Part shown: positions 2,078 to 37,921 of the stretch, in pieces
Position numbering within the stretch: position 1 is the stretch's first letter
Layout: each line of letters starts with the position of its first letter
From: Azolla caroliniana
Lineage: Eukaryota; Plantae; Polypodiophyta
Length of the DNA stretch: 64,000 bases
Direction: 5' to 3'
Assembly: GCA_043228905.1 (NCBI GenBank)
Contig: JBHGNT010000022.1
Location: 7,316,001 to 7,380,000 of the forward strand
Notes under the pieces: generated by a model
Database searches by the model: none
Seen by the model: the letters and a program-made list of their open reading frames with translations, nothing else
What the model was told of the DNA's origin: nothing
Position numbers and translations under genes: made by a program

Positions 2078-2806
2078 TGTTCGGAGACAGGTCCCTCCGG
2101 ATGGGAAGGGAGAAGAACAGTGCCGATGAACAAACTCGGCCGAGGCCGAAACCGTATGAGGTGGACCCGGCTACGGAGAGCCGGATGATGCAGACCCGGT
2201 ATGAAGACCGGATGAGGAGTACCCGGCTACGGAGGGCCGGATGGTGCAAACCCGGTATGAACCGGATGAGGAGGACCCGGCTACGGAGAGCCGGATGATG
2301 CAGACCCGGTGTGAAGACCGGATGAGGAGTACCCGGCTACGGAGAACCGGATGAAGAGACATATTCTTAAATATGTTTTCTGATAGTCCATCGAGGAAAA
2401 TAGCCGAAAAGTCATATTAGTATAAATATGACTTAGGGCAAACTAATATGGTAGTTGTTGTCATTTTCTTGTTGGTGCAAGAAGAAGAGAGAGTACATAA
2501 CGTTGTACAGAGAGAGAGAGAGAAAGAGGTTGTTGCCTCTGTTGTAACCGCCGCCTGTGGCGAAGATCGTGAGTCCGAGGTCGTTGCCTCCGTGAACTCA
2601 CTGTTTTGTACATTCTTACATAGTGACAGTTTGCAGCCTGTGGGCTGCCGTGGTTTTTCCCCTAGTTTGGGGTTTTCCACGTAAACCTCCTGTGTAATTT
2701 TTTTTTTTCCCTCTTCTTTGTGTCGCGTCTTATTTCCCGTTTTCTGTGTATCATTCTAAGCTTGGTTGTGGCCGAGCATTGCGCATAAGGAACGACCAGT
2801 TCCCGT
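2078..2806 (+). repeat. Copia family A 3' LTR with ~3.5 copies of a 54-bp tandem unit and (GA)n
   Basis: Homologous to the LTRs at 37922, 40525 and 61458; TATA-like TATAAATA at ~2421. Confidence 0.92.
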
Positions 2807-3450
2807 TGTCGTGAAGAAAACCGTCCACAAGTGGAATCGGTGCACCGGAGCGTAGGAACCGGCTCTTCAAGCACGTACGTCTTATGTTGTACATAAGAGA
2901 GAATTAGGTACATAGAAGATCTTAGGTAGGTAGATTCGGTAGGTAGGAAGTTAATGGGAAACGGCTCCTTTCTGGCCTATAAAAGGAGGGAGACGAGGAG
3001 GAGAGAGGGATCGCGGATAGAGTTGACGAAGTGTTGTCGGATTGTCGGCCGAAGGCTTCTCTCTCTTCCATACTCCGTAGCTCCTTTCTGTGCAGGTTTT
3101 CGGGAGGCTCGCACTGCTCTGAGGAATGCCCGAGTGCTTCCGGCAGCACCTCGAACCTACTCCTTTCTTTCTGAGCATTTACGAACAGGCATCGGCATCT
3201 GTTCGCTGGCATATTCGGTTGTAACCGACTTCGTGCTTCTTGTTGTTTGTCTCTGTTAATATATACATACATACCTTTGTGTCTCTCTGTGTCGGTTTCC
3301 CGCTCGCGTCTTTGTGTCGAAGGGTCGTGTCCCTGTGGATCTACGCTCGCACGTAGTGGGTCCCTTCCCTTCTCCTTTCTCTCTTGCTCTTCAGTTCGAG
3401 ACCCCCGAGGTCCCGCCTCATTCCACGCATCCGCGAGGAATACCTCGACA
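2807..3450 (+). repeat. 5' LTR of the Trp-primed Gypsy
   Basis: Direct repeat of 9188-9831 with TG...CA termini. Confidence 0.95.
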
Positions 3451-3453
3451 TCT

Positions 3454-3471
3454 TGGTGAACCCGACGTGAA
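3454..3471 (+). promoter_or_regulatory. Primer binding site complementary to the tRNA-Trp 3' end
   Basis: TGGTGAACCCGACGTGAA is the reverse complement of TTCACGTCGGGTTCACCA (plant cytosolic tRNA-Trp end), 3 nt after the LTR. Confidence 0.9.
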
Positions 3472-3493
3472 GGAGGTGGCAGAAGAGTAGAAG

Positions 3494-5620
3494 ATGAAGG
3501 GGCCGGATCTTGCAGAGGCCATGGCTTCGGCCGTGAATCGGATATTGAGCGCACGCGAGGGCACCGGCGCCCTCGACAGAGCCATTGAGGCGGTCGTCGG
3601 TACGATCGGCCGGTTCAACAGAAAGGATACCACGAAGTATTTGGCGTCCTACGAGGCAGAAATGCTGATGCGGGACATTCCGGAAGAGAGGCGTCTTGCC
3701 GGGTTCCCTCGAGTGGCGATGCCGAGCATCCATGCGGAGGTGCTCGAGGTGCGGGCGGAGAGCCGTACCTGGGAGGAGTTCGAAGGCCGATTCCTAGGAA
3801 AATACAGGTTGGACGACGCGGTCCGGCTTTCGAAGCGGGACTTCATGGAATGGGTGGAGGCCCCCGGCAAGGGAAGAAACGCGTCGGCACTCCTCCGGGA
3901 GTTTGAGGAACGCTTTGCGCGCCTTTCGGCGCTTGACCGAACCGTTTTGGATACGAGCCGGGTCCTACTGTTCGTCAAGTCGGTGGACGAGCGGGACCGG
4001 GATCAAGTCGGCTCCTTGATAGAAACCGAAGACGGGCTGACGACCGACTAGGCTGCGGTTAAGAGAGTCTGCGGCCGTTTCGACAAACGGCGAGAATGGG
4101 TTGATAACGGGGTGGCCGGTGCGGGCTCTGTCATAGCAAGGAGGCTTGAACCGGCACCGCAAGGGCGAAGGGAAGAGACCCGAGAGTGGCTCGAAACCGG
4201 TTCGGCTTCCACCGGCATGGTCAATGGCTCGTCCGGAGGAGCAACGCTGGAGGAGTTGACGCGGGCGATAAAGGATCTCCAGATCGCCCAGACTCGAAGG
4301 AAAGGCAGCGAACCGGCTCGTGACCGACGGCCGGCAGCAGGGAACAGGTGCATGTGGTGCGACGAGGTCGGCCACATTCGGAAGGACTGCGGCAATTTTG
4401 CAGAGGCATTGAGGAACCGGGTGGTGTACCTGTGGGAAGGTCGGGTGCATGCCAGCGACACCAGAAGGGCCCTAAACCGAAACGAAGGGCGAGGAGGTAT
4501 GAAGAGACTGATGGAAGAGGCAGCGGCCCGACACGTGGAGGCCATCCACTACTCGGCGTCGGTCGGCATTCGGGTCGGGGGCAGCGAGGCCCGGAAGGAG
4601 AGCAAAGACGGATTCTGGTCGGCAATGCTGGAAGGCCTCGCCGGCGCACGGCTGAGGAAAGATGAAGTGGACCGCACTGAGAGACGGGTCCGGGAAATAA
4701 CCGGGTGGAGCGACCCGGTCGAGGAGAAGACGGGCTTCGTAGAAGCCGCCTGCCAGAACTATGAGGCTCTGGTAGAAGACAAACAAGTGGGGAAAGCCGG
4801 AACGGCCGAGCCCTCACAACGATACGAGACCCGATTCGGGCAACGACGGAACGAAGCCGGTGGGTCCAGCGTGCAAGATAACCCCAGGAAGGGCGGATAC
4901 CGACTGGGGACGGAAATAGAAAGGACCACGGACCTACGAAAGGTCCTAGAAGAACGGATCCTTGACAGCAAAGTGGAGCTGTCATTGCGGGAGGTGCTAG
5001 GGATCGCTAAGAAGGAGTTCCACGACTCCATTGTGGACTTGGTGAAGCGGAAGAGGCTGTCGACGGAGACGGAACCGGAAAGACCGGTGGAGGTGCGGAC
5101 GACGCACATCAACGACTTGGCGCTGGAAGATGAGTGGGCGGAGAGCCACTATTCGAGGCCACACTGGGCCCGAGCGACCACGGAGACCCCAGTAAAGATC
5201 GGAGATGTTCAGGAACCGGTGGTGGCACTGGTGGACCATGGTTCGGAAATAAACCTGATGTCCATGAACTTCTATAAGAGGGGAAAGTGGCCGATCAACA
5301 CCAAGCACGGGTGGAAGATACGGGCGGCGACGCGCGCCACCGAGGAACTGCACGGGGCCTGCCCGAACGTGCGAGTCAAGATCGGCGACGTCAAGGTTGA
5401 CCAACACTTCTTCGTACAGGAGACGTCCTCGCACCCGGTCATATTAGGGGAACCCTACATCACGGCGGCGCGAATGGAGACCAAGGTGTTGGACAACGGT
5501 TCGGCCTACGCGAGGGTCAAAAGCCAGGACGGGCGCCATTCGGTTCAATTTCTGACGGTGCGACCGAACCACGAGCGAAACCGCGAATCCCTCGGTGGCG
5601 AGAACCAGGAGGATTTTTAG
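3494..5620 (+). pseudogene. Gag-protease ORF with one premature TAG at 4049-4051
   Basis: Zinc knuckle CMWCDEVGHIRKDC; aspartic protease motif LVDHGSEINLM and VILGEPY; ORFs 3494-4051 and 4112-5620 are in frame. Confidence 0.88.
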
Positions 5621-8600
5621 AGAGGGCTGCCAAGGCGTGGGGCCGAGACAGTACGGACACTCGGGAAAGACCCCACAGCTGTACGATAGAACCGAAACCG
5701 AAGAAACCTTGTACGATAGGCAGAAAATTTTGCTTCTCCAACGATGGAGGGTGTATGATAGTCGGCATCGTTGGCCGAGAAAGGGCAAGGGCGGAGGAGC
5801 GACTTCGAGCGTGCGGAGTTCTCGGCCCGGACGAGGAAATCAGCGGAGCCGTGGAGGCGGTCTCCTTCGACAACACCTTGGGGATGCTGAGGAAGATAGC
5901 CGGAGAAGACCTTAATGAAGACCGGACGATACCGGTATGTTCCGAAGAGATGTACGAAGTCATCGCGAACTTCAATCAGGGGCTCGGGTCGGATCGGACG
6001 GCCCGGGTTAGCACGAAGTACAAGACTGTGGACCGGAAGGTAAGGCCAGTCGTGGCACCCTTACCGGAGGGCAGCGAATCCCGAATCAGAGGGGTTGCGT
6101 CGGACCCCAGTTTACGAGATCCGGTCTGCATAGGACACACCTTCACCGACGGGACGCTCCGGGAGCTCAAAATCGGTGGGAGCGGGTTCCTACTGCCGGC
6201 GGAAGAAGACCGGTTTCGGAGAATGCTCGGAAGGCACGGGAAAGCCTTCGCATTCTCACCGGAAGAGATCGGGTGCGTAGACCCGACAATCGTGGAGCCA
6301 ATGGTGATATTCACGGTACTGCATGTGCCGTGGAATCTCAAGCCGATTCCAGTACCGAGAGCTCACATCCCGAAGTTGATGGAGCTATTGAGGCAGAAAG
6401 TCGATATGGGCATTCTCGAACCGTCAAGTGCCCCATACTCGAACCGATGGTTTACCGTACCAAAGAAAAACGGAACATTGCGCTTCATTCAAGACCTGCA
6501 GCCGGTCAACAGAGTGACCATTCGGAACGCGGGAATCGGACCGACCATAAACGAGTTCGCGGAGGCCTTCGTCGGAAGGTCGATTTATTCAGTCGGTGAT
6601 CTGTACTCGGGGTACGACCAGTTCCAACTAGCCATGGAGAGCAGAGACATTACGACGATGCGAACTCCCCTCGGCCTAGTGCGAATGTGTACCCTGCCAC
6701 AAGGAGGGACCAACTCGGTGGCCCACATGGTGAATGCAATGAACAAGGTACTGAGGGATTGCATCCCGGACATCACCATGCCATTTCTAGACGACATCCC
6801 GATAAAGGGGTGCCCGGTGGAAGAGAAGGACGAGACACTCGGGCCGGACGGATGCCGGCGATTCGTGGCAACACACATCGATGACTGCGAGAGGGTGCTA
6901 CAAAGGCTAGAGGGTGCGAGGCTCACCTTCTCCGGGGAGAAATCGGCCTTCGGGCAATCAGAAATCCTGGTGGTCGGACACCTATGTGGACCATATGGCC
7001 GGAAGTCGTCTCCGGCAAAGGTAGAAGCCATCTCCGCGATGAAGACCGATTGTAGCTCGGTTACGGAAGTTCGGAGGTTCCTGGGGGCATGCGCATTCTA
7101 CCACATATGGATCCAGCATTACGCCCACGTTGCGGAACCGCTATACGGGTTGCTGAAGAAGGGGCGAAAATTTGAGTGGCGGGATGAGCACATGGAGTCG
7201 GTCTGGAAGCTGAAGGAAGCTCTTGCGGCAGCACCGGCGCTCCGGAAGGCTGTCTACGAGAAGGGTACCCCGGTATACATAACGGTGGATACGAGTCCGA
7301 CCGGGATCGGATGGGTCGTCAACCAAGAAGACGAGGACGACATTAGGTTCCCAATCCGATTCGGCGCGAAGGTCCTCAGTGAGCGACAACGAGGGTACGC
7401 CCAGGTTAAACGCGAACTCTGGGGTATCATTTCGGCAGTAAAGGCCGACAAAGACTACCTGATCGGGACAGAAGTGATTATCGAGACAGATTGCCTGCCA
7501 ATTCTCGGCATGGTTTCCGGATGCGCGACACCGGACCTGGCGATGCTCAGGTGGATAGCGTACATCAAGTCCCTGGACCCGGAAATACGACACATTTCCG
7601 GAAAAGACAACGCCATGGCCGACATGCTTTCGAGGGCGAGGTTTGATGACGAGGGCGGCATGGTTTCGGAGGACGAAGAAGTCGGCGTGGACTTCTTCGA
7701 GGCGGCGTACGTGACGACCGATGGGGCGAGCACTCCGGCACTTAACGACTTCGACGAGAGCAAGTACGACGGCGAGTGGCTACAGATCAGTGGGTTTTTG
7801 AGGACAATGACGCCGGATGCGTCATGGACGAGGGACGAGGCCAACCGGATCCGGAAGAAAGCATACTGATTCTTTCTCCGGGACGGATACTTATGGAAGC
7901 ACCCGAAGAAGAGGAACGGCGTCTCGCTCCGGGTGGTGGCGATGAAGGAAGAACAGGAGGAGCTGCTGACGGCCTACCACGACAGCCCTTGGGCTGGACA
8001 CCATGTAACGTGGGCCACGTTTGAGAAGATAAAGGGGAAGTACTGGTGGCCGGGACTGTACCGGGACGTGCATCGGTTCGTGACAACTTGCGAGAGCTGT
8101 CAGATGCACTCCATAGTCCGACATCAGGACGAGCTTCACCCTACATACCCTCCGACCATCCATTTCAAATGGATGGTAGATCTGGTAACGATGCCGATGG
8201 GAGTAGGACAGATGCGGTATCTGGTCCTGGCTCGGGAAGATCTGACGAACCAGGTGGAAGGCCGAGCCCTTCAAAACAAAACGACCGCGGCCGTATGTTG
8301 GTTCCTGATCGAGGACGTGATATGCCGGTACGGGTGCATCGGGAAGATCGTGGCTGATCACGGGGAGTTGGACACCGAAGAGGCCGAGGAGCTGTTCGAC
8401 CGGCTAGGAGTCAAGCTCTCGCTTACCACTGCGTACAATACGGAGGCGAATGGGAAGGTGGAGCGCGGACACGGACCGATCGTCAAGGCGTTAGTTCGGG
8501 CATGCGGAGGGCAAGTCGGGAACTGGCCGCGGCTGCTGCCTTACGCGTTGTGGGCTGACCGAACTACGCACAGTTCGGTAACCGGATTCATGCCGGCAGA

Positions 8601-9114
8601 GCTCATGTTTGGGCAGAAGCCGATCATGCCGATGGAACGTACGATCTCCTCATGGGCAACCGTGGACTGGAGAAACGAGATGAGCCGGGAGGAACTGTTG
8701 GCAGCGCGCATACGACAGCTCGAGCGAAGACCGGAGGACGTGGAGCAGGCTGCGGGAAAGCTTTGGGTGGCAAGGACGTGGAACAAAGCCCGGTTCGACC
8801 GAACGCACCGGCTCCGACCAAAGAAGATCGAGGAAGGCGACTGGGTGCTAGTCTACGACAGTAGCCTCGACAACCAGCACCGAGCAACACGGAAGTTCGC
8901 AAGAAGGTGGTTCGGGCCTTACGTGGTACAAAGCGCCAACGACAACGGGACATACCATCTGGCGGAACTCGACGGCACGAGAATGGCGATACCGATAGCT
9001 GGGAAGCAGATCAAAGCGTTCAAGAAGTGTCACGACGACGAGCCGGATCCGGTTAACCTGGACCGTGACGACGAACGATCCGAAACCAAGGAAGAACCGA
9101 CGGGCAGGGAATGA
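5611..9114 (+). pseudogene. Pol (RT, RNase H, integrase) in the -1 frame relative to gag, with a premature TGA at 7867-7869
   Basis: DLYSGYDQ, LPQG, FLDD, VDTS (RNase H), H..H..C..C zinc finger, MVDL/ADHG/VERGH integrase core, WFGPY. Confidence 0.93.
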
Positions 9115-9170
9115 AGGCTGGACCGGTTTTCTTCGTCCCAACTCAATTTGGCGCATGCCGGTGGATGCGC

Positions 9171-9187
9171 GGTTAGGTGGGGGCGGA
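9171..9187 (+). promoter_or_regulatory. Polypurine tract of the Trp-primed Gypsy
   Basis: GGTTAGGTGGGGGCGGA directly before the 3' LTR; nearly the same motif at 33593-33609 (minus). Confidence 0.8.
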
Positions 9188-9831
9188 TGTCGTGAAGAAA
9201 ACCATCCACAAGTGGAATCGGTGCACCGGAGCGTAGGAACCGTCTCTTCAAGCACGTATGTCTTATGTTGTACATAAGAGAGAATTAGGTACATAGAAGA
9301 TCCTAGGTAGGTAGATTCGGTAGGTAGGGAGTTAATGGGAAACGGCTCCTTTCTGGCGTATAAAAGGAGGGAGACGAGGAGGAGAGAGGGATCGCGGATA
9401 GAGAGGACGAAGTGCTGTCTGATTGTCGGCCGAAGGCTTCTCTCTCTTCCATACTCTGTAGCTCCTTTCTGTGCAGGTTTTCGGGAGGCTCGCGCTGCTC
9501 TGAGGAATGCCCGAGTGCTTCCGGCAGCACCTCGAACCTACTCCTTTCTTTCTGAGCGTTTACGAACAGGCATCGGCATCTGTTTGCCAGCCTGTTCGGT
9601 TGTAACCGACTTCGTGCTTCTTGTTGTTTGTCTCTGTTAATATATACATACATACCTTCGTGTCTCTCTGTGTCTGTTTCCCGCTCGCGTCTTTGTGTCG
9701 AAGGGCCGTGTCCCTGTGGATCTACGCTCGGACGTAGTGGGTCCCTTCCCTTCTCCTTTCTCTCTTGCTCTTCGGTTCGAGACCCCCGAGGTCCCGCCTC
9801 ATTCCACGCATCCGCGAGGAATACCTCGACA
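9188..9831 (+). repeat. 3' LTR of the Trp-primed Gypsy
   Basis: Direct repeat of 2807-3450. Confidence 0.95.
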
Positions 9832-9896
9832 CCGTCAATAACACAGTTGTTGGCGACCACGATTCTTGCACAAACGCAGCGAACAGTGGCGGGAAT

Positions 9897-12878
9897 GGAT
9901 GACTAGACCAACGAACGACCCGGTTACGGAGCAAGCAAGAAGACTTACCGAACGATTGCGGAAGCAAGAGGCTTTCCAACAAGCGGCAGAAGAGATCCGT
10001 GCTGATCGATCATTTTCCAAAGTAATCTGGCGAGTGGCGGCGGAGTCACTCTTCGTGCAGCTAACTCCCCACCCGGACGAAGGAAGCAGCTTGAGCAATC
10101 TCCGGGACGCGGAATCTATTCTACAAACATTAGCGACAGGGGAAGGCGATTCAGAACCGTTGTCGTGCTTTTTGGCGCCGGATCATTGTGTGAGTCGGGT
10201 GGGAACCACTGGGGTTTTAGACTAGGAGAAGGAAGAATTTGAGACAAGTTTATAGTTATGGATAGATTATTAGAAAGAGAGATCGAAATTTCGTGAATCC
10301 CACGAGTGTATTGTATTCGATTAATCAATATTTAGATAAGAATATGTATTTAGATTGAAAGAAAGAGATTAAAATGAACTTGTGAATCCCACAAGTATAG
10401 ATTATGTCGTGAATCCCCCGAATATAGTTTGTTAATTGGTGTTTTAGGAAATATATCCAATTTCCCAAATATTTCACCCCCCCCCCCCCCCCCCAGATTA
10501 CATTGTGCTCCCCATCCTTATGTAGTGATGAGGGAGTCTTAGCATTCCATGCTTTTTCTTCTCTAACTATAGACTCCATGCTTTTCCTATAGATAGACTA
10601 TATGCTTTTGCTAACTTGTGCGTTTTTTATCAACTATAGCGTTCATGCACACTATATGTGCATGCGTAGTTTTTTTTTTTTTTTAGCATGCATTTTCTTT
10701 TAACTAAAGTTTATCCTAGGTGAACTAACCTTTCTATGTGGAACATCTATTTTTTAACACTAATGAAATGCTAGTGCAATGGTAAGACATTACATTATTA
10801 ACATGGAGTTGCAAAGTTTGAATCTTGCTCTATGCATGTAATGCTTATTTTGATATTTTCTTCATTTTTTTCTTCATATTTATTCAATCGGTTATTTTAT
10901 ATTATTTTCATGTAGTGTACGAAATACACTACAACACCGTTCTCGGCCCTTGAATCGGATTCGGACGGCGAATGCAACGCCCATTCGAATTACCGTAGCA
11001 GACACCCCATACGGATTGGAGGACGAGCAGTCGAATACCTTGCCGACACCAGAACCAGAGTTAACGGAACTGGAAGCCCCAGACCGGCAAGTGGCGGATC
11101 AACTTCTGACATCGTCACGTGAAACACCGAAAGAAGAGGAGGGGAGACCTCTAACACCACCAGCCCGTGTTCCGACACCAGACGACGACATGTCGTTCCA
11201 ATATCCCAAGTACCAGGATGATCCAGACGCAGAAGCTCATGTCTATGCTTTTCTACAAACATGGGAAGCAAACCATGTGTCGCAATGCTTGACCGCCGCC
11301 GAAGCAGAACGCTCAAAGATTGCAAAGTTCGGCATGACCTTGGAAGGACCAACCGCGCGATTGGGCTTGATGCACCCTCCTGGCACCATCACGACGTTTG
11401 AGGACTTAAAAACCAGATTTTTACAATTCTTCACCAAGGACGTGGATCATCGGGAGATGGTCGGCCTATTCTACACTATACGGCAGGAACCTACGGAAAC
11501 CATTCAGCAATTCGTAATCTGGTTCCAGCGAATGCACAACTAGCTCAATTGGGCACCATCGGAAGCAGAAGCTAAAGCAATATTCCTAGCAGCACTTCGG
11601 GAACCCCTGCGTACGGTGTGCGCAGTGATTGATTTCCGCACTAGCACGATCGACCAAGTCATAGACCGGGTCAGGGAGATGGAGAAAACAAGCTCGTGGC
11701 TAACAATGGGGGCGCTCCAGCATACATTACCGACAGCAGATGACCTATGTTTTCGGCAAGCTATACAATGTACGACTTGTCTCAATGCCGGGCTCTCGGC
11801 AATAGAATGTACCATGCGAACACAGTGCATATTATGCCATTCTAGGGCGCACACCATGGACCGATGCGAATATAACTTGTTGAACCGGCAAGCGGCACCA
11901 GTAAGGCAAATCGAACCCCGGAGTAACCGGGAGGAGGAAGAAGAACGTTGGCGGCGAGATGAGCGTTACCGGCCGGTGCAAGATGTCCGGTACAGCGACA
12001 AAAAAGACACTCACAACCGAGACCGGCAGGATAGCTACTGGGATTACAACGGTGATCGATATGAGCGATACAACTGGGATCACTCCCCCGGTTACAACCA
12101 ACGGAGGGAGGATCAAGGCAATTATGAAAACCGGCCCCAACAGGGTTACCGGAACAAAAAACGCTTCAACAAAAAATAGAACGCTAGAAAGGAGGACCAC
12201 CAATGGCATTCGGACAAGGGCACACCAAGTACCCAACTGGATCAAGGCCAAGCACCTAACCGACCACCAATAGGACCTCAACCGGGTACCGGAGCAAATG
12301 CCGAATCCAGCAACACCCGGAAACCATACTGCTACTATTGCCGGCATGAAGAACATTACAGTAATCAATGTGCGGTTAAAAGTTACGAGAAACAACTAGC
12401 AGTAAATATGGTGGTAGCATAAGTCGCCAACATACAACAAGTCACCACTAGGTCCAAAGGCAAAACAACGGAGTGGGAAACACAGGAGGCAATCCGAAAG
12501 CAAGCCATAGAGTGGGTGAAGAAGGCAAATGAGCGGAATGTGGCTGAGCTTGAACAACAAAAGGACAAACCGAAAGAGGCCACCGACACGATTTAGCCGG
12601 AAAACCCAACATGGCAAGCGTTACAAGAATGTCAAATTATGTTTCCATTGGGTCGGTTATTATAGCTAGTGCCCCGATTTACGGAAGGGCTGACATCAGG
12701 AATGACCACATCAAACCCGTTGCCGGCTCCTGCGTTTTTCTCAAATCCACAAGAAGGGCCAGCAGTGGTTGACACGAACAGTTCGGCAATCACCGCCATC
12801 GTCAAAGGACAAGAACAACTAGGGACGATTGTGGACGAAGGATCGGGCGTGAACGTGATTAGTCTATGGACTTGTAAT
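9897..12878 (+). pseudogene. Gag and N-terminal protease of the host Athila-like element, interrupted at 10161-10936
   Basis: YPKYQDDPDAEAHVYAFLQTWEANH, CTTC..C..CILC zinc motifs and IVDEGSGVNVI; homologous to the 52346-57925 ORF; several stops. Confidence 0.88.
10161..10936 (-). mobile_element. Solo LTR (776 bp) probably related to the Trp-primed Gypsy lineage, 4-bp TSD CCGT
   Basis: TGTCG...CAACA termini, CCGT on both sides (10157-10160, 10937-10940); removing it restores host gag E-P-F-S-A. Shares GGGA(A)CCAC(T)GGGG..T.GACTAGG with the LTR at 32850. Orientation is inferred from that similarity. Confidence 0.75.
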
Positions 12879-13434
12879 GGGTAAAAGCATGCGAGTGGAA
12901 ACACTATTATAGCTAATTAGCTACTAAAATGGCCATAGCTAATTAGCTATTTGTTTAGCTAGTCTTTTTTGTCGGAAAATCAAATATTTGAAAAACTAAT
13001 TTATGAAAAAACTCAAATATTTGAACTTCTGTTTCAGACGTAGTGGAACTTGGGGAATAGCACCATCATCTAAGGTCGACTTCAATGTCATCAATTTCCT
13101 GTTTAGCCTAAGTCTGATTTTGAACGCAAATGGAGTACTCAGAGCACGAACGCAGACGTAGCTCCCGCAACAGCAGAAAATCGACATTGCAGATTGAGAG
13201 CTACAACACAAAACCCGCTCGATCATCGTCCAGGTATGTTTCAGTTACAGAAACCCCAAACATTTGTTTTTTCTTTTTGACTACTGTCTGAACTTTGGTG
13301 TTGATTCATATTTCCCCAAAATCGAATAGGGCGAATTCCTTGGAGTCCCATAAAGGATGTCTCGCAAATCGGGGAGTAGCAACAGGTGTGTTTATATTAC
13401 TTTTTTTGTGTTTAATCCTGTCTTTAGTGATGAT

Positions 13435-22424: not shown

Positions 22425-22756
22425 GTTAAAACCCTAAATTTCCAGAAAAAAAAACAAGTATTAAAGATGGCTAGGGGCAACAACAATACACAAAAATATT
22501 CCACAATACACAAGATTAGACACAACAATACACAAGATAATCAATAGACAAAAAAGTTATTGCAATCCAAGACCGAACAGTAGAGGATTTCACTCTGTTG
22601 GATCGAACAGTTGAGGAGGCGATCCAAGACCGACCAATGGCAACAACTGAGTGTAGAATGTTGCCGTTGGATGAGTGAACTCCGTCAAATCGAAATGTTG
22701 AAGCAATCCGGGACTGGATAGTAGCGTCAACTGAGTATAGAATGATGGCAATGGAG

Positions 22757-23330: not shown

Positions 23331-23684
23331 TAGGTGGACTCGATAGGGTTTAGCAACAGTGGTAGCAACTAACCCACAGTACTCAACTAGAGATGGCCTA
23401 CGTGATGTGGCAAAGGATCATGCATAATGGACCTAGGAATTCGATATATAATTCATGGTACACATTTATGGTGCACACATCAATTTATGTTGCACATTTA
23501 TGGCACTCATTTACATATGTAATTAAAACACTCTAGTATTTTCAATGGTAGTTTTTTGCATACTGAATTGCTTAATGATGGCTTTTTACTAAAATGACTA
23601 TTTATCAATGGTAGCTTTTTGCATAGCTAATTAGCTATGTCAAGGACATAGCTAATTGTTTCCACTCACATGCTTTCACCCAAT

Positions 23685-25538: not shown

Positions 25539-26070
25539 TGTTGAGCGGAAAGCTCAACCGGAGCCGGATCGGCTGAATAAGCCGGAGCCGGTAAGAGAGA
25601 CGGATCGGACGAAACAGATCGGTATGACGGTGAGCAACCGAACCGACAAGCAGTGGAGGCCAGGTGCAACCCGTAACCGGCAGCCCAATCGGAAGCCTAG
25701 TATAGGATAGACTACTAGGAAGCTATAGTCTCGTAGTAAGTGTCAGATGCTCGTGTGAGCATTGAAATACATGGTACTTCTGTCAGTCCCAAGAGGACTT
25801 GTATAAATAGTGCTATTTAGCACAGTGTGTATTTGAGTCTGGAAATAATTTTGAAATTGTGTTCTGCTCTCTCTGTCTCTCTCTCTCTGTCTCTCTCTCT
25901 CTGTCTCTCTCTCTCTGTCTCTGTGTGTTGTTCTCTGTTTTACTGTTTTACGCTTCCGCAAACACTCACGTTCACATGGTATCAGAGCGCGAGGGTTGAG
26001 AACCTCTGCTGCAGACATTTACTCTTGAGAAGAAAACCCTAACAGGTCGAAAACAGACACAGTAGAAGAC

Positions 26071-29000
26071 ATGGATAGAGGCATGGCTACGTCGCTCCCG
26101 GTGGAGAAGCTCGACAGGAGCAACTACGCATCCTGGTCTTACAAGATGCACCAGTGCCTGCTTGGACACGAGTACTGGAGTTATGTCGAAGGAGCGAATG
26201 ATGCAGCGCCCGACTCGGCACACAAGGACTTCCCGGTATGGGAACAGGCGGCAAGCAGGGTGATGTACTGCTTCGCGTCCAGTGTCGGCGATCAGCTGCT
26301 CAACCACATCCGTGACGCCAAGACACCGAAGGATGCTTGGGGGAACCTGAAAAAGGTTTTCGCCGCAAGCACCACTGCCCGGAAGCTGCACCTCAGACAG
26401 GAGTTGAGCAATGTTCGACAGAAGAACATGTCTGTGGCAGACTACACTGGCCGGATAAAGGAGATCTGCGATTCGCTCGCCTCTATCAATGTTACCATAG
26501 AGGAAGACGAGATGGTGCAGGTATGTCTCGGAGGCTTGGCGTCCAAGTTCGGAGCGTTCCGGACTACGGTGTGTACAACGGAGAATACACCCTCACTCTT
26601 CAACTTACAGTCCATGCTGCTTGTAGAGGAGAACCACGCCGGTGCATCTACCAGTGCATCCCCGGACAGCCGAATGTTGTACACGGGAACGGATCGGCTC
26701 CGTGGGCGTGGTGGAAGAGGTGGGTCAGCACGCAATGGAGGCGGCCGGCAAGAGCAGGAACGGAGGCACTATGAACGTGCCGACAGCAGTTCCGGAACTT
26801 CCACAAGCAGGGGGAGTCAAGGCGGTGTTGGAGGCCGGCAAGACAAATCCGCTACGGAATGCTGGTATTGTGGCAAAAAAGGCCACAAGGAAAGCGAGTG
26901 CTGGAGAAAGCGTGCCGATTCGGACAAATCCGGATCCGGCAAGACCGGTATGGATGGCCAGCAAAACTCGCACTACGCAAACGGATCAGGAGGATCCGGA
27001 ACCAGAGAGGCCGGTAAGGGGCCAGCCTTGGTGATGAATCACAAGGCAAACTCAATGAAGAAGACCACTTCCAAAACGGAGGAAGTGTGGTATGTTGATT
27101 CCGGCGCGTCGAACCACATGACGAGCCACAAAGAGTGGTTCTCCTTTCTGGACAAACCGGATCGACCAGGAGTAGTCGAAACCAGAGACGACACTCCTCA
27201 CCCAATCGTGCACGTCGGAGAAGTCCCTCTAAGCCACGTCAGACAGAAAGGGAAGCTGATGAACGTATTACACGTTCCGACAATCACGAAGAACCTGGTG
27301 TCCGTCGGTCATATTGTCGACCAGGGGATGCAGGTGCGGTTTACGCACCTCGGGTGCTTCATTAAGGATGAGGGTGTTCCGACAATCACGAAGAACCTGG
27401 TGTCCGTCGGTCATATTGTCGACCAGGGGATGCAGGTGCGGTTTACGCACCTCGGGTGCTTCATTAAGGATGAGGGCGAAGTCATTGCGCAAGGGCGCAG
27501 AGACGGGAGGATGTTTATCCTCAACAGCAACGACTTTGGCACCGCTCTGTTCGCGAAACGACAGAAGGTCGAGTCGGACATCGACCTGTGGCACAAGCGG
27601 ATAGGCCACGTCAACTACCGGAGGCTTCAAGACCTGCAAACGAAACAAGTCGTTTTTGGTTTGCCGAAGTTCAGCGGCCAGAGAGCCGAAATTTGTGAAG
27701 CCTGCCAACTTGGGAAGCAACACCGGCTTCCATTCCCCACCGAACGGAACCGGAGCCGTAACAAGCTCGATCTCATCCACTCAGATGTGTGGGGACCGGC
27801 ACAAAGTGTAAGCCTTGGCGGGAGCCGATACTTCGTCTCCTTCATCGACGACTATACTCGACATACTTGGATCTACCTCATTGAGCGGAAGAGTGAAGTC
27901 TTCGACTGTTTCCAGAGCCTCCAGAAGATGGTGGAACGGGAATCGGAGAGGAAGATCAAATGCCTTCGGTCGGATGGCGGAAAGGAATATTTTTCCGGCC
28001 AATTCACTAGTTATCTGCAGCAGAAGGGAATTCGGCAAGAGTTTAGCTGCAGATACACACCGGAGCAAAACGGTGTGGCCGAAAGGAAGAACCGGACACT
28101 CGTCGAAGTGGTAAGGGCAATGCTGGAGGAGAAGAGCATGCCCCGGTTCTACTGGGCGGAGGCGGTCCGGACGGCCGTCTACATACCACACCGCATTGGT
28201 GACAAGGTGTCAGCTCATGAGCTGTATTTCGGGCACAAGCCGAACTTAAGACACCTTCGGATATTCGGCAGCATAGCGTATGTGCATGTGCCGGATCAGA
28301 AGCGGAGAAAGCTGGATGCAAAATCGGAAAAATGCATCCTAGTCGGCTATGCTCAAGAGCAAAAGGGGTATAAGTGCTATAACCCCCGGACGAAGGAAGC
28401 CCGAGTTAGCCGGGATGTCGAGTTCGATGAATCGGCATCTTGGTACTCCGTATCAACTCCGACTTCCAATCCCGACCCAATGTCGGAAGATCAGGCCAGT
28501 GAACCTGAATCAGCCCTGGCAGAGGATGATGAAGCCGGGACTCAAGATGAGAGTCTGGAATCGTTACGGTTGAGTGGACCGAACGAGCGACTGAGTCGGT
28601 TGGACCAGTCGAATGAAGAGACGGCAAGTGGTGGAGACTCTGCCGTGCTCTCCCCGCGCAAGGAACCGAGGAAACGGTTCACGCGCAAAGAGAAGGGGAA
28701 GAGGAAGATGCCGGAATTCGAAACCGGCAATGATGAGTCGGATCGGTGTGTATCCGACTCCGGAAAGGAGAAAGGCGGATCTTCGGCAACGAAGACCAAA
28801 CTGGCCAAGAAGGGCCTCAAATCAGGTGACGGTGCGTTGCGCCGATCAACCCGCCAGAAGGATCCCGTCAAACGGTGCGGGTACAATGAATACATGGCGC
28901 ATCATTATGCGTACATGACTAAGGTGACAGAAGTGCGTGAGCCGGAGAGCTACGCAGAAGCGGCAAAGGACGCAAATTGGCGTGCTATTATGGACGAAGA

Positions 29001-30725
29001 AATGCGGGCACTCGATGCCAACGAAACTTGGGACCTAGTTGATCCTCCCCGTCACTGTAAACCGATCGGATGCAAGTGGGTGTACAAGGTCAAGTACAAC
29101 GCCGACGGTTCTGTTAACTGGTACAAAGCCCGGTTAGTGGCGAAGGGATACGCGCAGACCCACGGAATCGACTACGACGAGACCTTTGCTCCTGTGGCGA
29201 AGATGACGACGGTTCGTGTGGTACTGGCGGTTGCTGCGGCAAGGGGGTGGCATCTTCACCAGATGGATGTGAAGAATGCCTTCCTTCAAGTAGAGCTTGA
29301 AGAAGAAGTCTTCATGACTCAACCCCTCGGATTTCAATCGGAGATGAACACGTCGGCGGTATGCCGACTGAAGAAGTCGCTTTACGGCTTGATGCAAGCC
29401 CCCCGAGCTTGGAACGCGAAGATCACGCACCGGTTGCGTAAGCTGGGGTTTGCTGTCTCTAAGTCGGACTCTTCGTTGTTCATCCAGCAAGGCTCTGACG
29501 GTCCGGTATGTATACTCTTGTATGTGGATGATTTAGTCATCACCGGACCGGGTCTTCCCGAAATCAACTGCGTCAAGTCCCAGTTGTCGGACGCATTCGA
29601 AATGAAGGACCTGGGGGACCTTCATTATTTTCTTGGGATCGAAGTGATCCAGACCCCTGACGGCATATTGCTCTCACAACGACATTACGTGTTGAATATG
29701 TTGTATAATTTCGGCATGACTGATTGCCGACCTGTCTCCACACCCCTGGACCGGAACCAGAAGCTTCGTCCCAACTCCGGACCGGCCTGCAATGAGAAAC
29801 GGTTCCGACAGGTTGTCGGAAGCCTGATCTACTTAACCATCACCAGACCCGACATCAGCTATCCGGTCGGCATGGTAAGTCAGTTCATGCAGCAGCCAAC
29901 CGTGGAGCACCTTCAGTGCGCGCAACGAATATTATGGTATGTCAGCGGCACTAAGGACCGGGGACTGCTATACCGACGAGGTCTACCCGAAGAGCTTGTC
30001 GGTTACACAGATGCTGACTGGGCCGGCGATGCGTCTGATCGCCGCTCCACTTCCAGATACATATTCTCCATAGGTAGCACGGCCGTTGCGTGGAGCAGCA
30101 AGAAGCAGCCCACAGTGGCTTTGTCAAGCACTGAGGCTGAGTACCGGCCCGCTACTGTTGCCACTTGTGAAGCCATCTGGCTTCGGCGACTGCTGCGAGA
30201 CTTGCGGATCGAGGTACCGAGCCCGATCCCGATTTACTGCGATAACATGAGCTGCCTGTGTTCCATGCTCGCACAAAGCACATCGAGGTGCACTACCACT
30301 TCGTGCGTGAGCGGGTCCTGAGCGGTGAGGTTGACCTACGATATGTTCATACGGATCGGCAAGTTGCCGACATCTTCACCAAGCCGCTCGGATCGGACAA
30401 GTTGCAGCACTTTACCGACATGCTTGGTATTCAGCATCTCGACATGCCGCACTTGAGGGGGAGAAGCAAGGGCAAAGTCTCTACCGCAACGGGCAAAGGC
30501 CAAAAAATTGTTGAACCCGTCGGTAAGAGGAGAGCCAGAAGAAGAGGAGACAAGAAGATGAAGGAAGCCGAGTCGACGAAGGAAGTCGACACACCCGAAC
30601 AGGTCGGAGCAAGCGGCTGTGAAGAAGAGTTGTGCACTCAGGAAGAGAAGTGCATGTTGTGCGGAGGTCATCACGACAGTGCTAATCATGATGCGGAGTC
30701 GAATGAAGAATTCGATTTCGGTTAA
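26071..30725 (+). pseudogene. Copia gag-pol polyprotein with a 102-bp internal duplication and a frameshifting deletion in RNase H
   Basis: CWYCGKKGHKESEC, YVDSGASNH, WHKRIGH, HSDVWG, LRSDGG, ERKNR, YVDD, LSSTEAEY; frame change near 30255 continues in ORF 30258-30725. Confidence 0.93.
27274..27477 (+). repeat. Perfect in-frame 102-bp tandem duplication in the Copia protease region
   Basis: VPTITKNLVSVGHIVDQGMQVRFTHLGCFIKDEG occurs twice. Confidence 0.95.
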
Positions 30726-31605
30726 CCGGCTGAAGAAGCCGAGGGAAGCATGGAGAAGTCCAAGACTCGGAAGTGGTCCGATGTGGTGAGAGGCGTGAAG
30801 CCGAAAGTCGAATCGGAGTGTACCAATTCGGACAAGAGCTGGAACGAGTCGGATACAGCTGACTCGGATCAACAGATGGATCCGGATGAGTCGGATCGAC
30901 TGAAGGCCAAGGGGACACGGACACAGCGGCAGTCGATGCCATCGTGGGAGAACCGACGGATAGGCAAGCGCCGGAGTCACAGCAATGTGAGTGCTGAGAT
31001 GGGCCTATTGAGCAGACATGCCGACCGAGAGGGTCGAGGCGCGCAGAACCAAAGGGGTCGCAGCAAACGGGACCGGACCGGACGAGGAGCGCGAGCAAGG
31101 CGGAGTGACGCCAGGAGAAGTCGGTTGGAAGAACGGACTGCCACAGAGGTTGACACTACAACCCCACCTCAGGTTGAGCTTGAGGGGGAGTGTTGAGCGG
31201 CAAGCTCAACTGGAGCCGAATCGGCTGAATAAGCCGGAGCCGGTAAGCGAGACGGATCGGACGAAACGGATCGGTATGACGGTGAGCAACCGAACCGGCA
31301 AGCAGTGGAGGCCGGGTGCAACCCGTAACCGGCAGCCCAATCAGAAGCCTAGTATAGGATAGACTACTAGGTAGCTATAGTCTCGTAGTAAGTGTCAGAT
31401 GCTTGTGTGAGCATTGAAGTACATGGTACTTCTGTCAGTCCCAAGAGGACTTGTATAAATAGTGCTACTTAGCAAAGTGTGTATTTGAGTCTGGAAATAA
31501 TTTTGAAATTGTGTTCTGCTCTCTTTGTCTCTCTCTCTCTATCTCTATTTGTTGTTCTCTGTTTTACTGTTTTACGCTTCTGCAAACACTCACGTTCACA
31601 GGTCT

Positions 31606-32678: not shown

Positions 32679-32945
32679 TTAAAAACTCAACTTGTTAATA
32701 AAAAATATAAAAAATAAAAAGTCATCATGCATAGGCGAGGAGCGAACGAAAACTTTGGGCACTTTGAAAAGTTGTGCTGGGTGGCCAATTAAAGCCTCTT
32801 TAAAAATGCACCATGTTGTCGCGTTGTTACGCGCGTGCGTGGAGAAAGGCGGGACCACGGGGGTCTTGGACTAGGGAGTGATGGAGCGTAGGAAGTCGTG
32901 CTTCACTGTTTCCGGGGCATCCCAGAAGCACACCGAAAGCAACCG

Positions 32946-32985
<40 letters not shown>

Positions 32986-34679
32986 TTAACACCGACTCAC
33001 GCACACACACGCACACACAGCCCAACCCGACTCACGCCCTTATGTACAGGAAATGCAGAAAAGGGGAAGCACCCGACACCAACAAAGACGCAAATATACA
33101 CAGACAGACGCAAATGTATATATATAAAAGGAAGAATACATTCCCGGCTTCGAGCCGGACCAAGATAGCTTACAACAGTCGTCTGCTTTCAAGCCGCCGT
33201 CGGGGAGCTCTCGGGCCCGTCGCGCCGAGCGGGGTCTTGCACAGGAGGCCGAGCCGAAGCAAACCCTAAGTAAAACACGAAGGGGAAGAAGAAGAAGAAG
33301 AAGAAGAAGAAACACTAACCCTAAACTAACGGTATACCCTCTAACGCAAAAATGGGCAACCCCTTCACAAAGGGCGTTCCCTTCCTTTTATAGAACAAGG
33401 AAAGGGATGCGTTACAATGTGGGATCAATCCCGACTTACATGGGATCGTATGTCCCGACTTGACTACTCTTCGGCGCCATAAAGGCCCCTCGTTATTCAC
33501 ACTAAATGTACATGGGTGCGTACACACGCTGCACCCCGCCGATGTAGCCAATGTTCCCCGGTTTCCGCCTCTGGCCGAAATTCTTCACGACATCCGCCCC
33601 CACCTAACTGCACGTCCACTGGTACGTGCTAAATCCGGTTGAAGGGTGAGAGATTTCGGCTGGTGAGAAACCGGTCTTCCGTGATCCGCATCACAGCTTG
33701 CTGCCGGTTTGATCCGTCGGCTTCGATTCTTCCTTCGCGCTTGCTTCCCCGTAGGCTCATTCGACCCGTTGATGGGTCCTCTGCCACGATCCCCGTAGTA
33801 TGCGTACTTCCGCTGGCCCTTGTTCGGCCGTATGAACACCCCCGCTCCCGTCGTATGCCTGATGTCCTCCGCTTGAGGCATGCCCGTAGCGGCCCGCTTG
33901 GCCTCCATTGACCATTCGTGATGTCCTGATTGTCGTCCTACGTTGTTTCGTGTTGCCACCGCCCTCTCGCCGCCACCTTCCTTCTCCATGGTCTTACATC
34001 GCCGCGTCGGCTCGAACCGCCATGGTCTCCAGAACGGTGTGGAGGATCCCTTTCCGGCCTTCTCCGCGCAACCTATCTCCGCGCTCGCCTTTCCGCTACG
34101 GCACCTCTGTGTGCCACATACCCTCGTCCATTGTTTGGCACTGCCTGTGTCGCACTCTGATTCATTGCACGCCTTGTCGGCCCCCTTTCCGGCCAAATCG
34201 TGCATCGCCGCTCACCCGCATACCGGTGCCCTTTGCATCCGAGGAACACCCCGTAGTAGCCCGCTTGGCCCTTCCCGTCTTCGTTCTGCTACAACAGATC
34301 CTGAGTCTTCCGCTTGCCGTCGTCCCCTCGCCCCCACCAGCTTGTCACCCCGGGCTTGCCATGTAAGTCTTCGCTACTTCGACGGAGATACCGAGATCTA
34401 CGAAGCGAGTGTCGAGGATCCTCCTCCGGCCTCTCTTGCCATTCCCTAACTCCGACCCTGTGCAGTCCACTAGGCACCCGTCACCTCGTTCCCGGCACCT
34501 CCCTTGTGCCGTCTTCCGATTCCTTTGTTCGGCACCGCCTGCGCCGAACGTCGTCCCGTAGTCACGCTTTCATCCGGCCCGCAATGGCCACTGGCGAGAC
34601 TCTTATTCCGTCCCAGGTGTGCTTTTCCGGCCTGACACACCTCCTCGTGTTTGCCCCTACCACCTCCTTCCGAAATCTC

Positions 34680-35215
34680 GTGTCGTCGGGTCTCGTTCCC
34701 TGCCGCCACCGTCCTTCTCCCTAGGTCTCACGTTGCCACGTTGGCCGAACTGCCGGAGTCTCCGGATCGGTGTGAGGGTCCCATAGGACCGGACTCCGTT
34801 TCTATGCTTGCTGAAATTCAGGTGTCTTTCGTTTGAGTCCCTCCCGGACTCTCCTCGTGTCTTCCGCGTAGTCGGGTCTCGTTTCCCGCCGCCACCACCT
34901 TCTCTCTCGGTCTCATGTTGCCACGTTGGCCGAACTGCCGGAGTCTCTAGTTAAGTGTGGGGATCCCGTAGGACCGGACTTCCTTACGCCCTTTGCCTTC
35001 GTCACCTCGCCGCCACCGTCAGTATCTTGGTCTTACGTCGACCGCGTTGACGACTGCCGAAGTCTCTAGAACCGGTGTCAAGGATCCTCCGTAGACCGCC
35101 CATCCGTAGCCCTTTTCCTTCGTCACCTCGCCGCCACCCTCAGTATCTTGGTCTTACATCGACCGCGTTGCCGACTGCCGAAGTCTCTAGAACCGGTGTG
35201 AAGGATCCTCCGTAG
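34680..35215. repeat. Two pairs of internal direct duplications (~120 bp each)
   Basis: 34680-34797 resembles 34868-34980; 34995-35093 resembles 35115-35213. Confidence 0.8.
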
Positions 35216-36241
35216 GCGTCCGTTTTGTCTTCCTGACCCTGTCCCGGGTCGTCCTTTTCCGTATGCCGAGAGGGCATTTTGTTCCGCACCCTCTCCCGTG
35301 GTACCGACGTACCGTCTCCTCGGCCTCTCCGTAGGCCTGCTCTCTTCCTCCCTCCCGGAATGGTCATCGGGGAGTCCGTTCCGCCCGGTTCTCGTCCGGA
35401 TCCGTTCGTCCTTCTCCGTACTGCCAAGTCATGTTCTCCTGTTGCCACCGATCTCTCCTATAGGACTCACGCCGGCACTCGGGCCGGCAGCCGGATCGGT
35501 GTAAGGAACTCCATAGGACCGGCTTCCATTCTCCTTCCAACTCTCGACCTTCGCCCGGTCGGTCTTTCTCCCCATGGAAAAGAGGGCCGCTCGTCCCGCA
35601 CCCTCTCCCGTATCGGCACCTTTATGCCGAATCCGGCCCCGATCGAACAATCCACGACCGGATCACGCTCCACCCGTATCGGAATGCCGATCTCCTCGTG
35701 CCGCGTCCGTCCTCGGCCTCACAAGCCGTTTCCCATCCATCTTCGCTGGCATCATGCCAGGACTCCTCGGTACTGCCATCCATCTCCTCGGTCTTGCATG
35801 GGCATACGGGCCCGAATGCCGAGTTCTCCGGAATCGGGTCCGTGGGCTTTCGTCCGCTCCTTCCCCGTATCGTCTCACCGGTGATTCTTGGCCTTTCGCC
35901 GCCGCCTTCCTCTGCTTGGGACTCACGTGGGCACTCGGGCCCGACTGCCATCGTCTCGGGAGCAAGTGTGGGAAGACACAAAGAATCTCCCGTCCGTTTT
36001 ACGCCGTTGTCCGTAGCCACCGACTCTTCGTGGTCGGCGGTCGTCTTCTTACCGATCGCGCAAGCCCTGCCTGGGCTTGCTTCTCCGATTTCCGGGGTTT
36101 CGGGCTGACACGCCCGGAACCGCTGGTCCCAACTACCCAGTTCCGCAATCTGTATCTCGGCCTCGCCCTTGGCCGTTCTATCTCCCGTGGTACCGTCGTA
36201 CCGATCTTCCGCCGTCGCGTGGGCGTCTCCTCAGTCTCAGC

Positions 36242-36986
36242 TTACGGCCTTGATCTTTCCTCTTCCTCGAGCATCGCCTCGAGAGCTGCGTACGCCTCCG
36301 CAATCGTGGCCCCAACGCCCACCCTTGCCAACTCTCTTTTCCGTTCGACCTCTCCCCGCTGTGATGGCACGCCGTCGCGCGCCTTCCTCTTAGCCCTTTC
36401 AGCTCGCTCATCATCTAGCCATTGGCACACCCTCCCGACCTTCGACCAGTCCTCCGTAAGCCCATTCGCCCCGTCATCGTCTTCGAGCTCAATCCCAATG
36501 GCCTCCCGTTCCGCTTGGTCGATCGACCTGACGAACAATAGGACCTTGTCCGCCCCCACCAAACCTTGTTCCCGCTCCGAGAGCCGAGCAAGCCGTCGCT
36601 CGAACTCTCGGAACGCCTTGGTCGCGCCCCGATGGGTCTTTGCCGATGCTACCCACTGGTCGAAGTCGTGTCATCCCCGGCTTTTCCACTGTCCTCCGTA
36701 TGCCTTCAGGAGCGCCTCTTCGAAGGCCTCCCACGAACTATGAGCCTCACAGAGCTCCTTTATTTCCGCATGCATCCGGACAGCTACGACCCAACAGAAG
36801 AACTCCAGCCTCAATGACTCTTCTACGCCACGCTCCTCCATTTCCACATTGTAGGCTTCCAAGTAAGACTCTTTCGACCACTCGCTCAACCGCTTGTTGC
36901 GCTGCTTCTCACCTCATCACCACTCGTGCCGACTCCAACACCACTTCGGCCACCATCACCGCGAGGTCGTCGTCTTCCGACTCCAT
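36242..36986 (-). pseudogene. Gag-like ORF of the non-autonomous element (degenerate)
   Basis: YLEAYNVEM...SSWEAFE...KVLLFVRSID aligns by eye with gag 3494-4051. Confidence 0.7.
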
Positions 36987-37134
36987 CCTCCCTTGCCGCC
37001 CTTCACGTCGGGTTCACCAAAGATGTCGTGTCGTTACGCGCGTGCGTGGAGAAAGGCGGGACCATGGAAGTCGTGCTTCACTGTTTCCGGGGCATCCTAG
37101 AAGCACACCGGAAGCAACCGAACGGAAAGAGAGA

Positions 37135-37182
<48 letters not shown>

Positions 37183-37921
37183 TTAACACCCACTCACGCA
37201 CACACATGCACACACAGCCCAACCCGACTCACGCCCTTATGTACAGGAAATGCAGAAAAGGGGAAGCACCCGACACCAACAAAAACGCAAATATACACAG
37301 ACAGACGCAAATGTATATATATAAAAGGAAGAATACATTCCCGGCTTCGAGCCGGACCAAGATAGCTTACAACAGTCGTCTGCTGTTAAGCCGCCGTCGG
37401 GGAGCTCTCGGGCCCGTCGCGCCGAGCGAGATCTTGCACAGGAGGCCGAGCCGAAGAAAACCCTAAGTAAAACACGAAGGTGAAGAAGAAGAAGAAGAAG
37501 AAGAAGAAGAAGAAACACTAATCCTAAACTAACGGTATACCCTCTAACGCAAAAATGGGCAACCCCTTCACAAAGGGCGTTCCCTTCCTTTTATAGAACA
37601 AGGAAAGGGATGCGTTACAATGTGGGATCAATCCTGACTTACATGGGATCGTCTGTCCCGACTTGACTACTCTTCAGCGCCATAAAGGCCCCTCGTTATT
37701 CACACTAAATGTACATGGGTGCGTACACATGCTGCACCCCGCCGATGTAGCCAATGTTCCCCGGTTTCCGCCTCTGGCCGAAATTCTTCACGACAACGTG
37801 TCAACCGACTGCTATATTAGTACAAGACGTGCATGCGCGGGAACCAAGAAAAGGTGCCATGCATGGAGAAAGAAAACCTCTGCCACGCAGAGTCCCTTTC
37901 ATTTCGCAAACAGAGAGATCT

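What the first reader, a model, noticed from the sequence alone, without database searches (positions are those of the whole stretch)
2803..37799. Gypsy lineage with 4-bp target duplications centred on CG (CCGT, CCGT, ACGT/ATGT)
Seen: three independent TGTCG-ended insertions (2807-9831, 10161-10936, 32817-37795) have 4-bp TSDs with a central CG. In the third, the left copy reads ATGT, interpreted as CpG decay. The fully bounded Copia and Athila-like insertions here have 5-bp TSDs without CG (GGTCT, GATCT, CAAAG). Known: plant LTR elements mostly make 5-bp TSDs with weak sequence preference; sequence-specific 4-bp TSDs are typical of insect errantiviruses. Inference: the integrase, which has no visible chromodomain, may recognise CpG or methyl-CpG directly, giving a route into methylated TE DNA. 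n = 3 and the targets are CG-rich, so chance is not excluded.
Basis: partly seen in the sequence, partly recalled or inferred. Interest (0 to 1): 0.72.

Follow-up and report, generated by a model that had tools for sequence, protein, structure and literature searches.

The report
Retrotransposon family inserting only at CG
A group of jumping genes in what is likely a fern genome lands almost only on the two-letter DNA word CG, a habit already published for their likely moss relatives (the Phygy group), and it is likely explained by the enzyme reading the DNA letters themselves rather than a methyl mark on them.

Summary
All three 4-bp duplications are as stated. For element 1's family, 432 of 465 outer right-hand junctions read NCG, 31 read TG/CA and 2 other. 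Background CG is 3.9-6.0%. The TG/CA share (6.7%) equals the CpG decay rate between sister LTRs (6.5%), and the mate copy still has CG in 24 of 27 exceptions, so insertion was probably close to 100% CG. The motif is VCGB: T is avoided at position 1. The 4-bp NCGN duplication, tRNA-Trp primer site and lack of chromodomain or extra RNase H match the Phygy lineage of Neumann 2019; tree placement was not testable. The host is likely a fern. The methyl-CpG idea gains no support: targets lie in repeats no more often than random VCGB sites (76-81% against 72%). The scan earlier named Phygy in this genome and noted NCGN insertion in a likely fungus.

The parts
2803..2806 (+). left copy of element 1 duplication, CCGT
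   Evidence: intact Copia LTR relatives have one CCGT
2807..3450 (+). element 1 5' LTR (family A, 644 bp, TGTCG...CGACA)
   Evidence: 23 mismatches in 644 to the 3' LTR
3454..3470 (+). primer binding site complementary to tRNA-Trp(CCA)
   Evidence: the matching 3' end is in this genome's tRNA-Trp genes, 7 of 9 loci scanned
3491..5620 (+). gag-protease region (DUF4100), interrupted by an in-frame stop
5401..7869 (+). reverse transcriptase (FLDDIPIKG motif) and one RNase H, ending at an in-frame stop
7870..9114 (+). integrase: HHCC zinc finger, DDE core, SH3-like end with GPY motif, acidic tail; no chromodomain
9173..9187 (+). polypurine tract
9188..9831 (+). element 1 3' LTR
9832..9835 (+). right copy of element 1 duplication, CCGT; the last two bases of the host Copia LTR follow
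10157..10160 (+). left copy of element 2 duplication, CCGT
10161..10936 (-). element 2: solo LTR of family B (relatives have the Trp primer site and a G-rich PPT; one relative holds gag-pol about 57-63% identical to element 1)
10937..10940 (+). right copy of element 2 duplication, CCGT
32813..32816 (+). left copy of element 3 duplication, ATGT (likely decayed ACGT)
32817..33592 (-). element 3 3' LTR (family C)
36449..36892 (-). element 3 gag remnant (36% identical to element 1); no pol found in the element
37003..37019 (-). element 3 tRNA-Trp primer binding site
37024..37795 (-). element 3 5' LTR
37796..37799 (+). right copy of element 3 duplication, ACGT

Best explanation
These are related Gypsy retrotransposons, likely of the Phygy lineage, whose insertions duplicate 4 bases centred on CG, likely because their integrase bends the target at the central step and reads the CG bases directly, with no need for methylation. 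Shown: 4-bp duplication, VCGB motif, Trp primer site, domain order, no chromodomain. Inferred: two integrase active sites cut 4 bp apart, as in retroviruses with 4-bp duplications, which favour a flexible pyrimidine-purine central step and avoid T at the joining site; here extra base contacts narrow that step to CG only. After insertion the element and its junctions are likely methylated in CG and CHG contexts, which erodes about 7% of duplication copies to TG/CA. The elements pile into other transposons because most VCGB sites in this genome lie there. Gag-only family C likely borrows the integrase of family A or a close relative.
For: Family A right ends: 432 NCG, 31 TG/CA, 2 other of 465. 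Junctions found by LTR similarity or in unselected DNA, three families pooled: 129 CG, 8 TG/CA, 2 other of 139; background 3.9% (400 kb systematic sample) and 6.0% (local); Copia control 1 of 19. No 5-bp match among 50 paired rows. Mate copy keeps CG in 24 of 27 exceptions with a mate. C/T differences between sister LTRs: CG 299 of 4608, CHG 174 of 2648, CHH 127 of 9824. T at position 1: 10 of 432 against 27-32% background; A at position 4: 1% of 147. This symmetric avoidance is what Serrao 2015 reports for 4-bp retroviruses. Best structural matches are foamy virus and Ty3 integrases. Targets in repeats: 111 of 147 and 104 of 129, against 289 of 399 random VCGB sites and 220 of 399 random positions. 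Phygy traits match. Relatives in other assemblies keep the traits: Trp site in 36 of 80 contigs, CG at 12 of 16 junctions.
Against: No biochemistry and no methylome; which residues read CG is not shown (model mean pLDDT 64.6, pTM 0.38). The repeat test uses a 1.9-Mb library biased towards these elements and cannot tell methylated from unmethylated CG; left flanks lean slightly above background (81% against 72%, p=0.065). Four pairs lack CG on both sides (L175 GTGT/GTGT, L057 CCAT/CCAT, L223 ATGT/GTGT, L138 GCAT/GTGT), and three have no matching duplication (L169, L221, L246). Phygy membership rests on structural traits; family A (mostly 6.6-7.3 kb) is shorter than the published range of 7.7-10.0 kb. 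392 of the 422 VCG matches were counted, not inspected, and ends followed by TNT (mostly primer sites) were not counted.
Confidence: 0.72

Rival explanations
1. The integrase needs or strongly prefers methylated CG, and so steers itself into silenced transposon DNA without a chromodomain.
For: Near-absolute CG focus; no chromodomain; 76-81% of targets in repeats; the elements bear CG and CHG decay, so this DNA class is methylated. A 1992 paper title on CpG methylation affecting retroviral integration in vitro appears in a reference list; the paper itself was not seen.
Against: Random VCGB sites are in repeats equally often (72%), and a Copia family without CG preference nests at 17 of 19. About a fifth to a quarter of targets have no repeat relative in the library. 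TG/CA centres, which also carry a 5-methyl group, are hardly used. A CGCG-preferring errantivirus subgroup exists in Drosophila, which has almost no CpG methylation (recalled).
Confidence: 0.13
2. Only DNA shape is read: CG is chosen as the most easily unstacked step, perhaps more so when methylated or on nucleosomes, with no base-specific contact.
For: Retroviruses with 4-bp duplications select flexible pyrimidine-purine centres. Preference outside the duplication is weak (only positions -1/+1 shift).
Against: The other pyrimidine-purine steps (TA, CA, TG) are more common yet essentially unused once decay is removed. An acidic residue at the position aligned with the target-contacting residue after the second catalytic Asp is kept in 186 of 188 relatives, which hints at specific contacts.
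Confidence: 0.12
3. Chance or local composition: the targets are CG-rich, so three CG-centred duplications mean little.
For: Flanks are CG-richer (6.0%) than the genome sample (3.9%).
Against: 432 of 465 and 129 of 139 junctions against 4-6% background; Copia 1 of 19 in similar DNA.
Confidence: 0.01

Closest known systems
Phygy clade, non-chromovirus Ty3/gypsy (Neumann et al. 2019, PMC6317226; passages and supplementary file 3 read)
   Same: 4-bp duplication, NCGN preference, tRNA-Trp primer site, no extra polyprotein domain, no extra ORF, coding region filling the interior.
   Different: Defined from Physcomitrella patens (later named in a liverwort, PMC12885004, passages); this host is likely a fern. 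Family A is shorter than the published range. Here the motif is refined to VCGB and gag-only partner families are seen. Tree placement untested.
Ginger1 DNA transposons (Bao et al. 2010, PMC2836005; passages)
   Same: Gypsy-like integrase with GPY/F motif, TGT ends, 4-bp duplications CCGG (75%) or CCGT/ACGG (24%). Atlas look-alikes of a homologous integrase were named GIN1-like (lead only).
   Different: Ginger1 has terminal inverted repeats and no RT; its motif is narrower (CCGG), whereas ACGT is commonest here.
Drosophila errantiviruses, one subgroup with CGCG targets (review PMC5408687, passages; PMC3276498, passages)
   Same: Sequence-specific palindromic target, mostly 4-bp duplications.
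   Different: No env frame here; different lineage and host. The review calls such specificity exclusive to errantiviruses, which Phygy contradicts.
Foamy virus and other retroviral integrases with 4-bp duplications (Serrao et al. 2015, PMC4422553; passages)
   Same: T avoided at the joining site, A avoided at the symmetric site, pyrimidine-purine centre; best structural match.
   Different: Their preference is weak and covers all pyrimidine-purine steps; here it is near-absolute CG.
TatI clade (Neumann 2019, supplementary file 3)
   Same: 4-bp duplication and tRNA-Trp primer site.
   Different: TatI has an extra archaeal-type RNase H in 100% of members; none found here. No NCGN preference listed.

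Membership tests
Phygy | Clusters with Phygy in RT, RH and INT trees | not testable with these tools
   No REXdb sequences are held; no named Physcomitrium record appeared among the 240 listed homologues or their listed cluster members. Named homologues were Riccia, Ceratopteris, Adiantum and the fungus Smittium.
Phygy | 4-bp target duplication | tested here: met
   (no 5-bp match in 50 rows)
Phygy | NCGN target preference | tested here: met
   432 of 465; 129 of 139
Phygy | tRNA-Trp primer binding site | tested here: met
Phygy | No chromodomain, no extra RNase H, no extra ORF; coding region spans the interior | tested here: met
   Pfam scans of element 1 and four long homologues; integrase ends 73 bases before the 3' LTR
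Phygy | Length 7656-9968 bp (descriptive; Neumann calls size relatively insignificant for classification) | tested here: inconclusive
   Element 1 is 7025 bp and family A mostly 6.6-7.3 kb, below a range taken from one moss species
TatI | Extra archaeal-type RNase H | tested here: not met
   No separate RVT_3 domain; the one weak hit (E 0.048, P0138) overlaps the ordinary RNase H
Selgy | tRNA-Ala primer binding site | tested here: not met
   Primer site is tRNA-Trp
Chromoviruses | Chromodomain after integrase | tested here: not met
Errantiviruses | env frame after pol | tested here: not met
   No room or ORF between integrase and PPT
Ginger1 | DNA transposon with terminal inverted repeats and no RT | tested here: not met
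   LTRs, primer site, PPT and RT present
Fungal Ylt1 clade | Tree placement with Ylt1 | not tested
   Recalled resemblance of the RT motif only; passages of PMC2864245 and PMC5014426 gave no Ylt1 target sequence

The most novel reading that the evidence does not exclude
Phygy-type integrases, perhaps with their fungal and Ginger1 relatives, are chromodomain-free readers of methylated CG that aim themselves at silenced DNA through the integrase core alone.
Probability: 0.13. Interest if true: 0.72.

Novelty: new member of a known kind. Interest (0 to 1): 0.25.

Why it matters
The trait is published for moss Phygy elements, so the headline is not new. What this adds is modest. The same specificity is present in a likely fern, in at least two integrase families about 60% identical. 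After correcting for methylation decay it is close to absolute, and the motif is VCGB rather than NCGN. That makes the lineage a clean natural model for how an LTR integrase reads two central bases. If methyl-CG sensing were shown, it would be a new way for a retrotransposon to find heterochromatin; the sequence evidence does not call for it.

Tried and rejected
Chance: rejected. 5-bp duplications: none in 50 paired rows. True insertion at TG/CA as a common route: rejected, since mates and empty relatives mostly keep CG; four both-sided cases remain. Extra targeting of repeats: not detected. Recurrent hot spots: 10 pairs among 276 flanks share a homologous junction, no large cluster. My first guess of a moss host: dropped after one host gene matched a fern best among named records (79% Ceratopteris; 69% Sphagnum, 71% Marchantia, 69-76% seed plants); one gene, no tree. 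Viral contig scan found no relative. Link to Ylt1: no target data found. The folded model was too weak to assign target-reading residues. GingerRoot has 6-bp duplications and no base preference (PMC6839031, passages). The 1992 methylation paper was not available to read. Literature searches for NCGN or Phygy gave Neumann 2019, Jedlicka 2019 (PMC6911290, passages: 4-bp duplications have GC-rich centres) and passing mentions; I saw no test of methyl dependence and no target data for fern Phygy. The other papers in those lists were seen as listings only, apart from PMC8282616 (passages). Neumann's per-element Additional file 1 was not among the files I read and may hold the VCGB detail.

Full report
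Observation. The three duplications are in the sequence as written. Element 1 (2807-9831, plus strand) is a full-length Gypsy element with 644-bp LTRs differing at 23 positions, gag-protease, RT, RNase H and integrase, broken by two in-frame stops. It sits two bases from the end of a Copia 3' LTR; three intact relatives of that LTR in the window carry a single CCGT. Element 2 (10161-10936) is a solo LTR on the minus strand. Element 3 (32817-37795, minus strand) has only a gag remnant. The three 5-bp control duplications are also present.

Genome-wide test. An exact 18-base right end of family A was counted in the 523-Mb genome by the bases that follow: VCG 422, VD 20, VCH 17, TNV 14. TNT, mostly primer sites, was not counted. 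I inspected 30 of the 422, all 37 VD and VCH loci and 10 of the 14 TNV loci and dropped 8 that were primer-site junctions. That leaves 465: 432 NCG, 19 NTG, 12 NCA, 2 other. Separately, junctions from loci not chosen by their duplication gave 129 CG, 8 TG/CA and 2 other of 139 over the three families; left and right flanks of one element are not independent, and families A and C could not be told apart at the left end. CG makes up 3.9% of dinucleotides in 40 systematic 10-kb samples and 6.0% in local flanks. A Copia family showed CG at that position in 1 of 19 outer flanks, after 11 primer-site rows were dropped from 30.

The exceptions are mostly decay. Of the 32 inspected non-CG right flanks, 27 had a mate (23 full elements, 4 solo LTRs); 24 keep CG on the other copy, one decayed on opposite strands (GCAT/GTGT), one reads GTGT twice while 3 of 3 empty relatives read GCGT, and one has no matching duplication. 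All 13 paired elements picked for a right-hand CG also have CG on the left. Of 10 family C pairs, 9 fit a CG-centred 4-mer; family B is noisier (L221 no match, L223 and L057 non-CG on both sides). No pair matched over 5 bp. C/T differences between sister LTRs run at 6.5% in CG, 6.6% in CHG and 1.3% in CHH context. That is the signature of CG and CHG methylation and predicts about 6.5% decayed duplication copies, against 6.7% seen. Several pairs differ G/A at the first base of the right copy, where the LTR end creates a CHG site.

Motif. T is at position 1 in 10 of 432 NCG sites, against 27-32% of background CGs; A is at position 4 in 1% of 147 right flanks (that logo leaves out non-CG, non-decay rows and includes selected loci). 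The motif is thus the palindrome VCGB, ACGT commonest, with a weak shift at positions -1 and +1.

Lineage. All three families use one primer site, whose complement is the 3' end of this genome's tRNA-Trp(CCA) genes (7 of 9 loci scanned, of 63 matches). Family C pairs are 4.7-6.1 kb and gag-only. Of three family B pairs, two are gag-only and one holds gag-pol about 57-63% identical to element 1, so B likely has its own sister integrase. The integrase has a zinc finger, DDE core and SH3-like end and no chromodomain; no extra RNase H was found. Named homologues come from Riccia, Ceratopteris, Adiantum and one fungus. Among 80 metagenome contigs with related integrases, 36 hold the Trp site, and 12 of 16 candidate outer junctions are CG-centred; 3 of the 4 others look like inner junctions. 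These are collapsed assemblies. One host gene points to a fern.

What is known. [quoted passage not shown] Every structural trait I could test matches, apart from a shorter length; the defining tree could not be built. TatI and Selgy also make 4-bp duplications but fail on the extra RNase H and on the primer. Ginger1 transposases make CCGG/CCGT duplications, and one Drosophila errantivirus subgroup prefers CGCG, so CG-centred targets recur among Gypsy-type integrases.

Mechanism. Serrao 2015 reports that retroviruses with 4-bp duplications bend the target at a central pyrimidine-purine step and avoid T and A at the two joining positions. VCGB is that pattern with the centre narrowed to CG. Since TA, CA and TG centres are unused, I infer added base contacts. 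The model's best matches are foamy virus and Ty3 integrases, but it is too weak to name residues. One candidate is an acidic residue three places after the second catalytic Asp, kept in 186 of 188 relatives; that this column is the foamy virus target-contacting Ala188 rests on the alignment plus recalled numbering.

Methylation. If methyl-CG reading drove these elements into transposons, targets should be in repeats more often than VCGB sites at large. They are in repeats in 111 of 147 right and 104 of 129 left flanks, against 289 of 399 random VCGB sites (p=0.51 and 0.065), 220 of 399 random positions and 17 of 19 Copia flanks. Motif supply is enough to explain the nesting. The test is indirect, since most VCGB sites may be methylated anyway, so methyl sensing stays possible at about 0.13.

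Verdict. Real, strong and well measured, but a known trait of a known lineage, here in a likely new host group. Interest 0.25.

Noticed in passing
G000 C8:17.80-17.82 Mb, C16:4.99-5.11 Mb, C5:10.105-10.112 Mb (L253-L257): The tRNA-Trp 3'-end pattern occurs 63 times, largely in tandem clusters (14 copies on C8, mostly about 1.2 kb apart; 19 on C16). This is the primer tRNA of this abundant lineage. Only the C5 cluster was checked with ARAGORN.
   Followed up: partly
L202, L211, L216, L241 and others: Duplication pairs often differ G/A at the first base of the right copy, where the LTR's final CA creates a CHG site. This can hide true duplications from exact-match tools.
   Followed up: partly
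window 2078-2806 and 9832-9837: Element 1 split a Copia 3' LTR two bases from its end.
   Followed up: yes
L234:7303-8262, L243:4535-5313: LTRs with both a PPT before and a primer site after, that is tandem elements sharing a middle LTR.
   Followed up: no
L177/L230, L085/L175, L199/L228: Different families inserted at the same homologous CG in a host repeat; 10 such pairs among 276 flanks.
   Followed up: partly
window 15390-16615 and 20605-21600, ORF 21597-22433 (-): Two blocks of a 20-bp near-palindromic repeat, with a neighbouring ORF that has a weak HTH hit; possibly the ends of a DNA transposon.
   Followed up: no
window 48899-51715 (-): A 938-aa open frame with no Pfam hit, downstream of pol in the Athila-like element 48090-58283.
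   Followed up: no
window 25539-31600 (+): A Copia element with a single open 1430-aa polyprotein frame.
   Followed up: no
L353, L355, L374: Four PPR genes among 46 ORFs scanned from the 400-kb sample suggest a large PPR family, in line with a fern-like host (the link is recalled).
   Followed up: no
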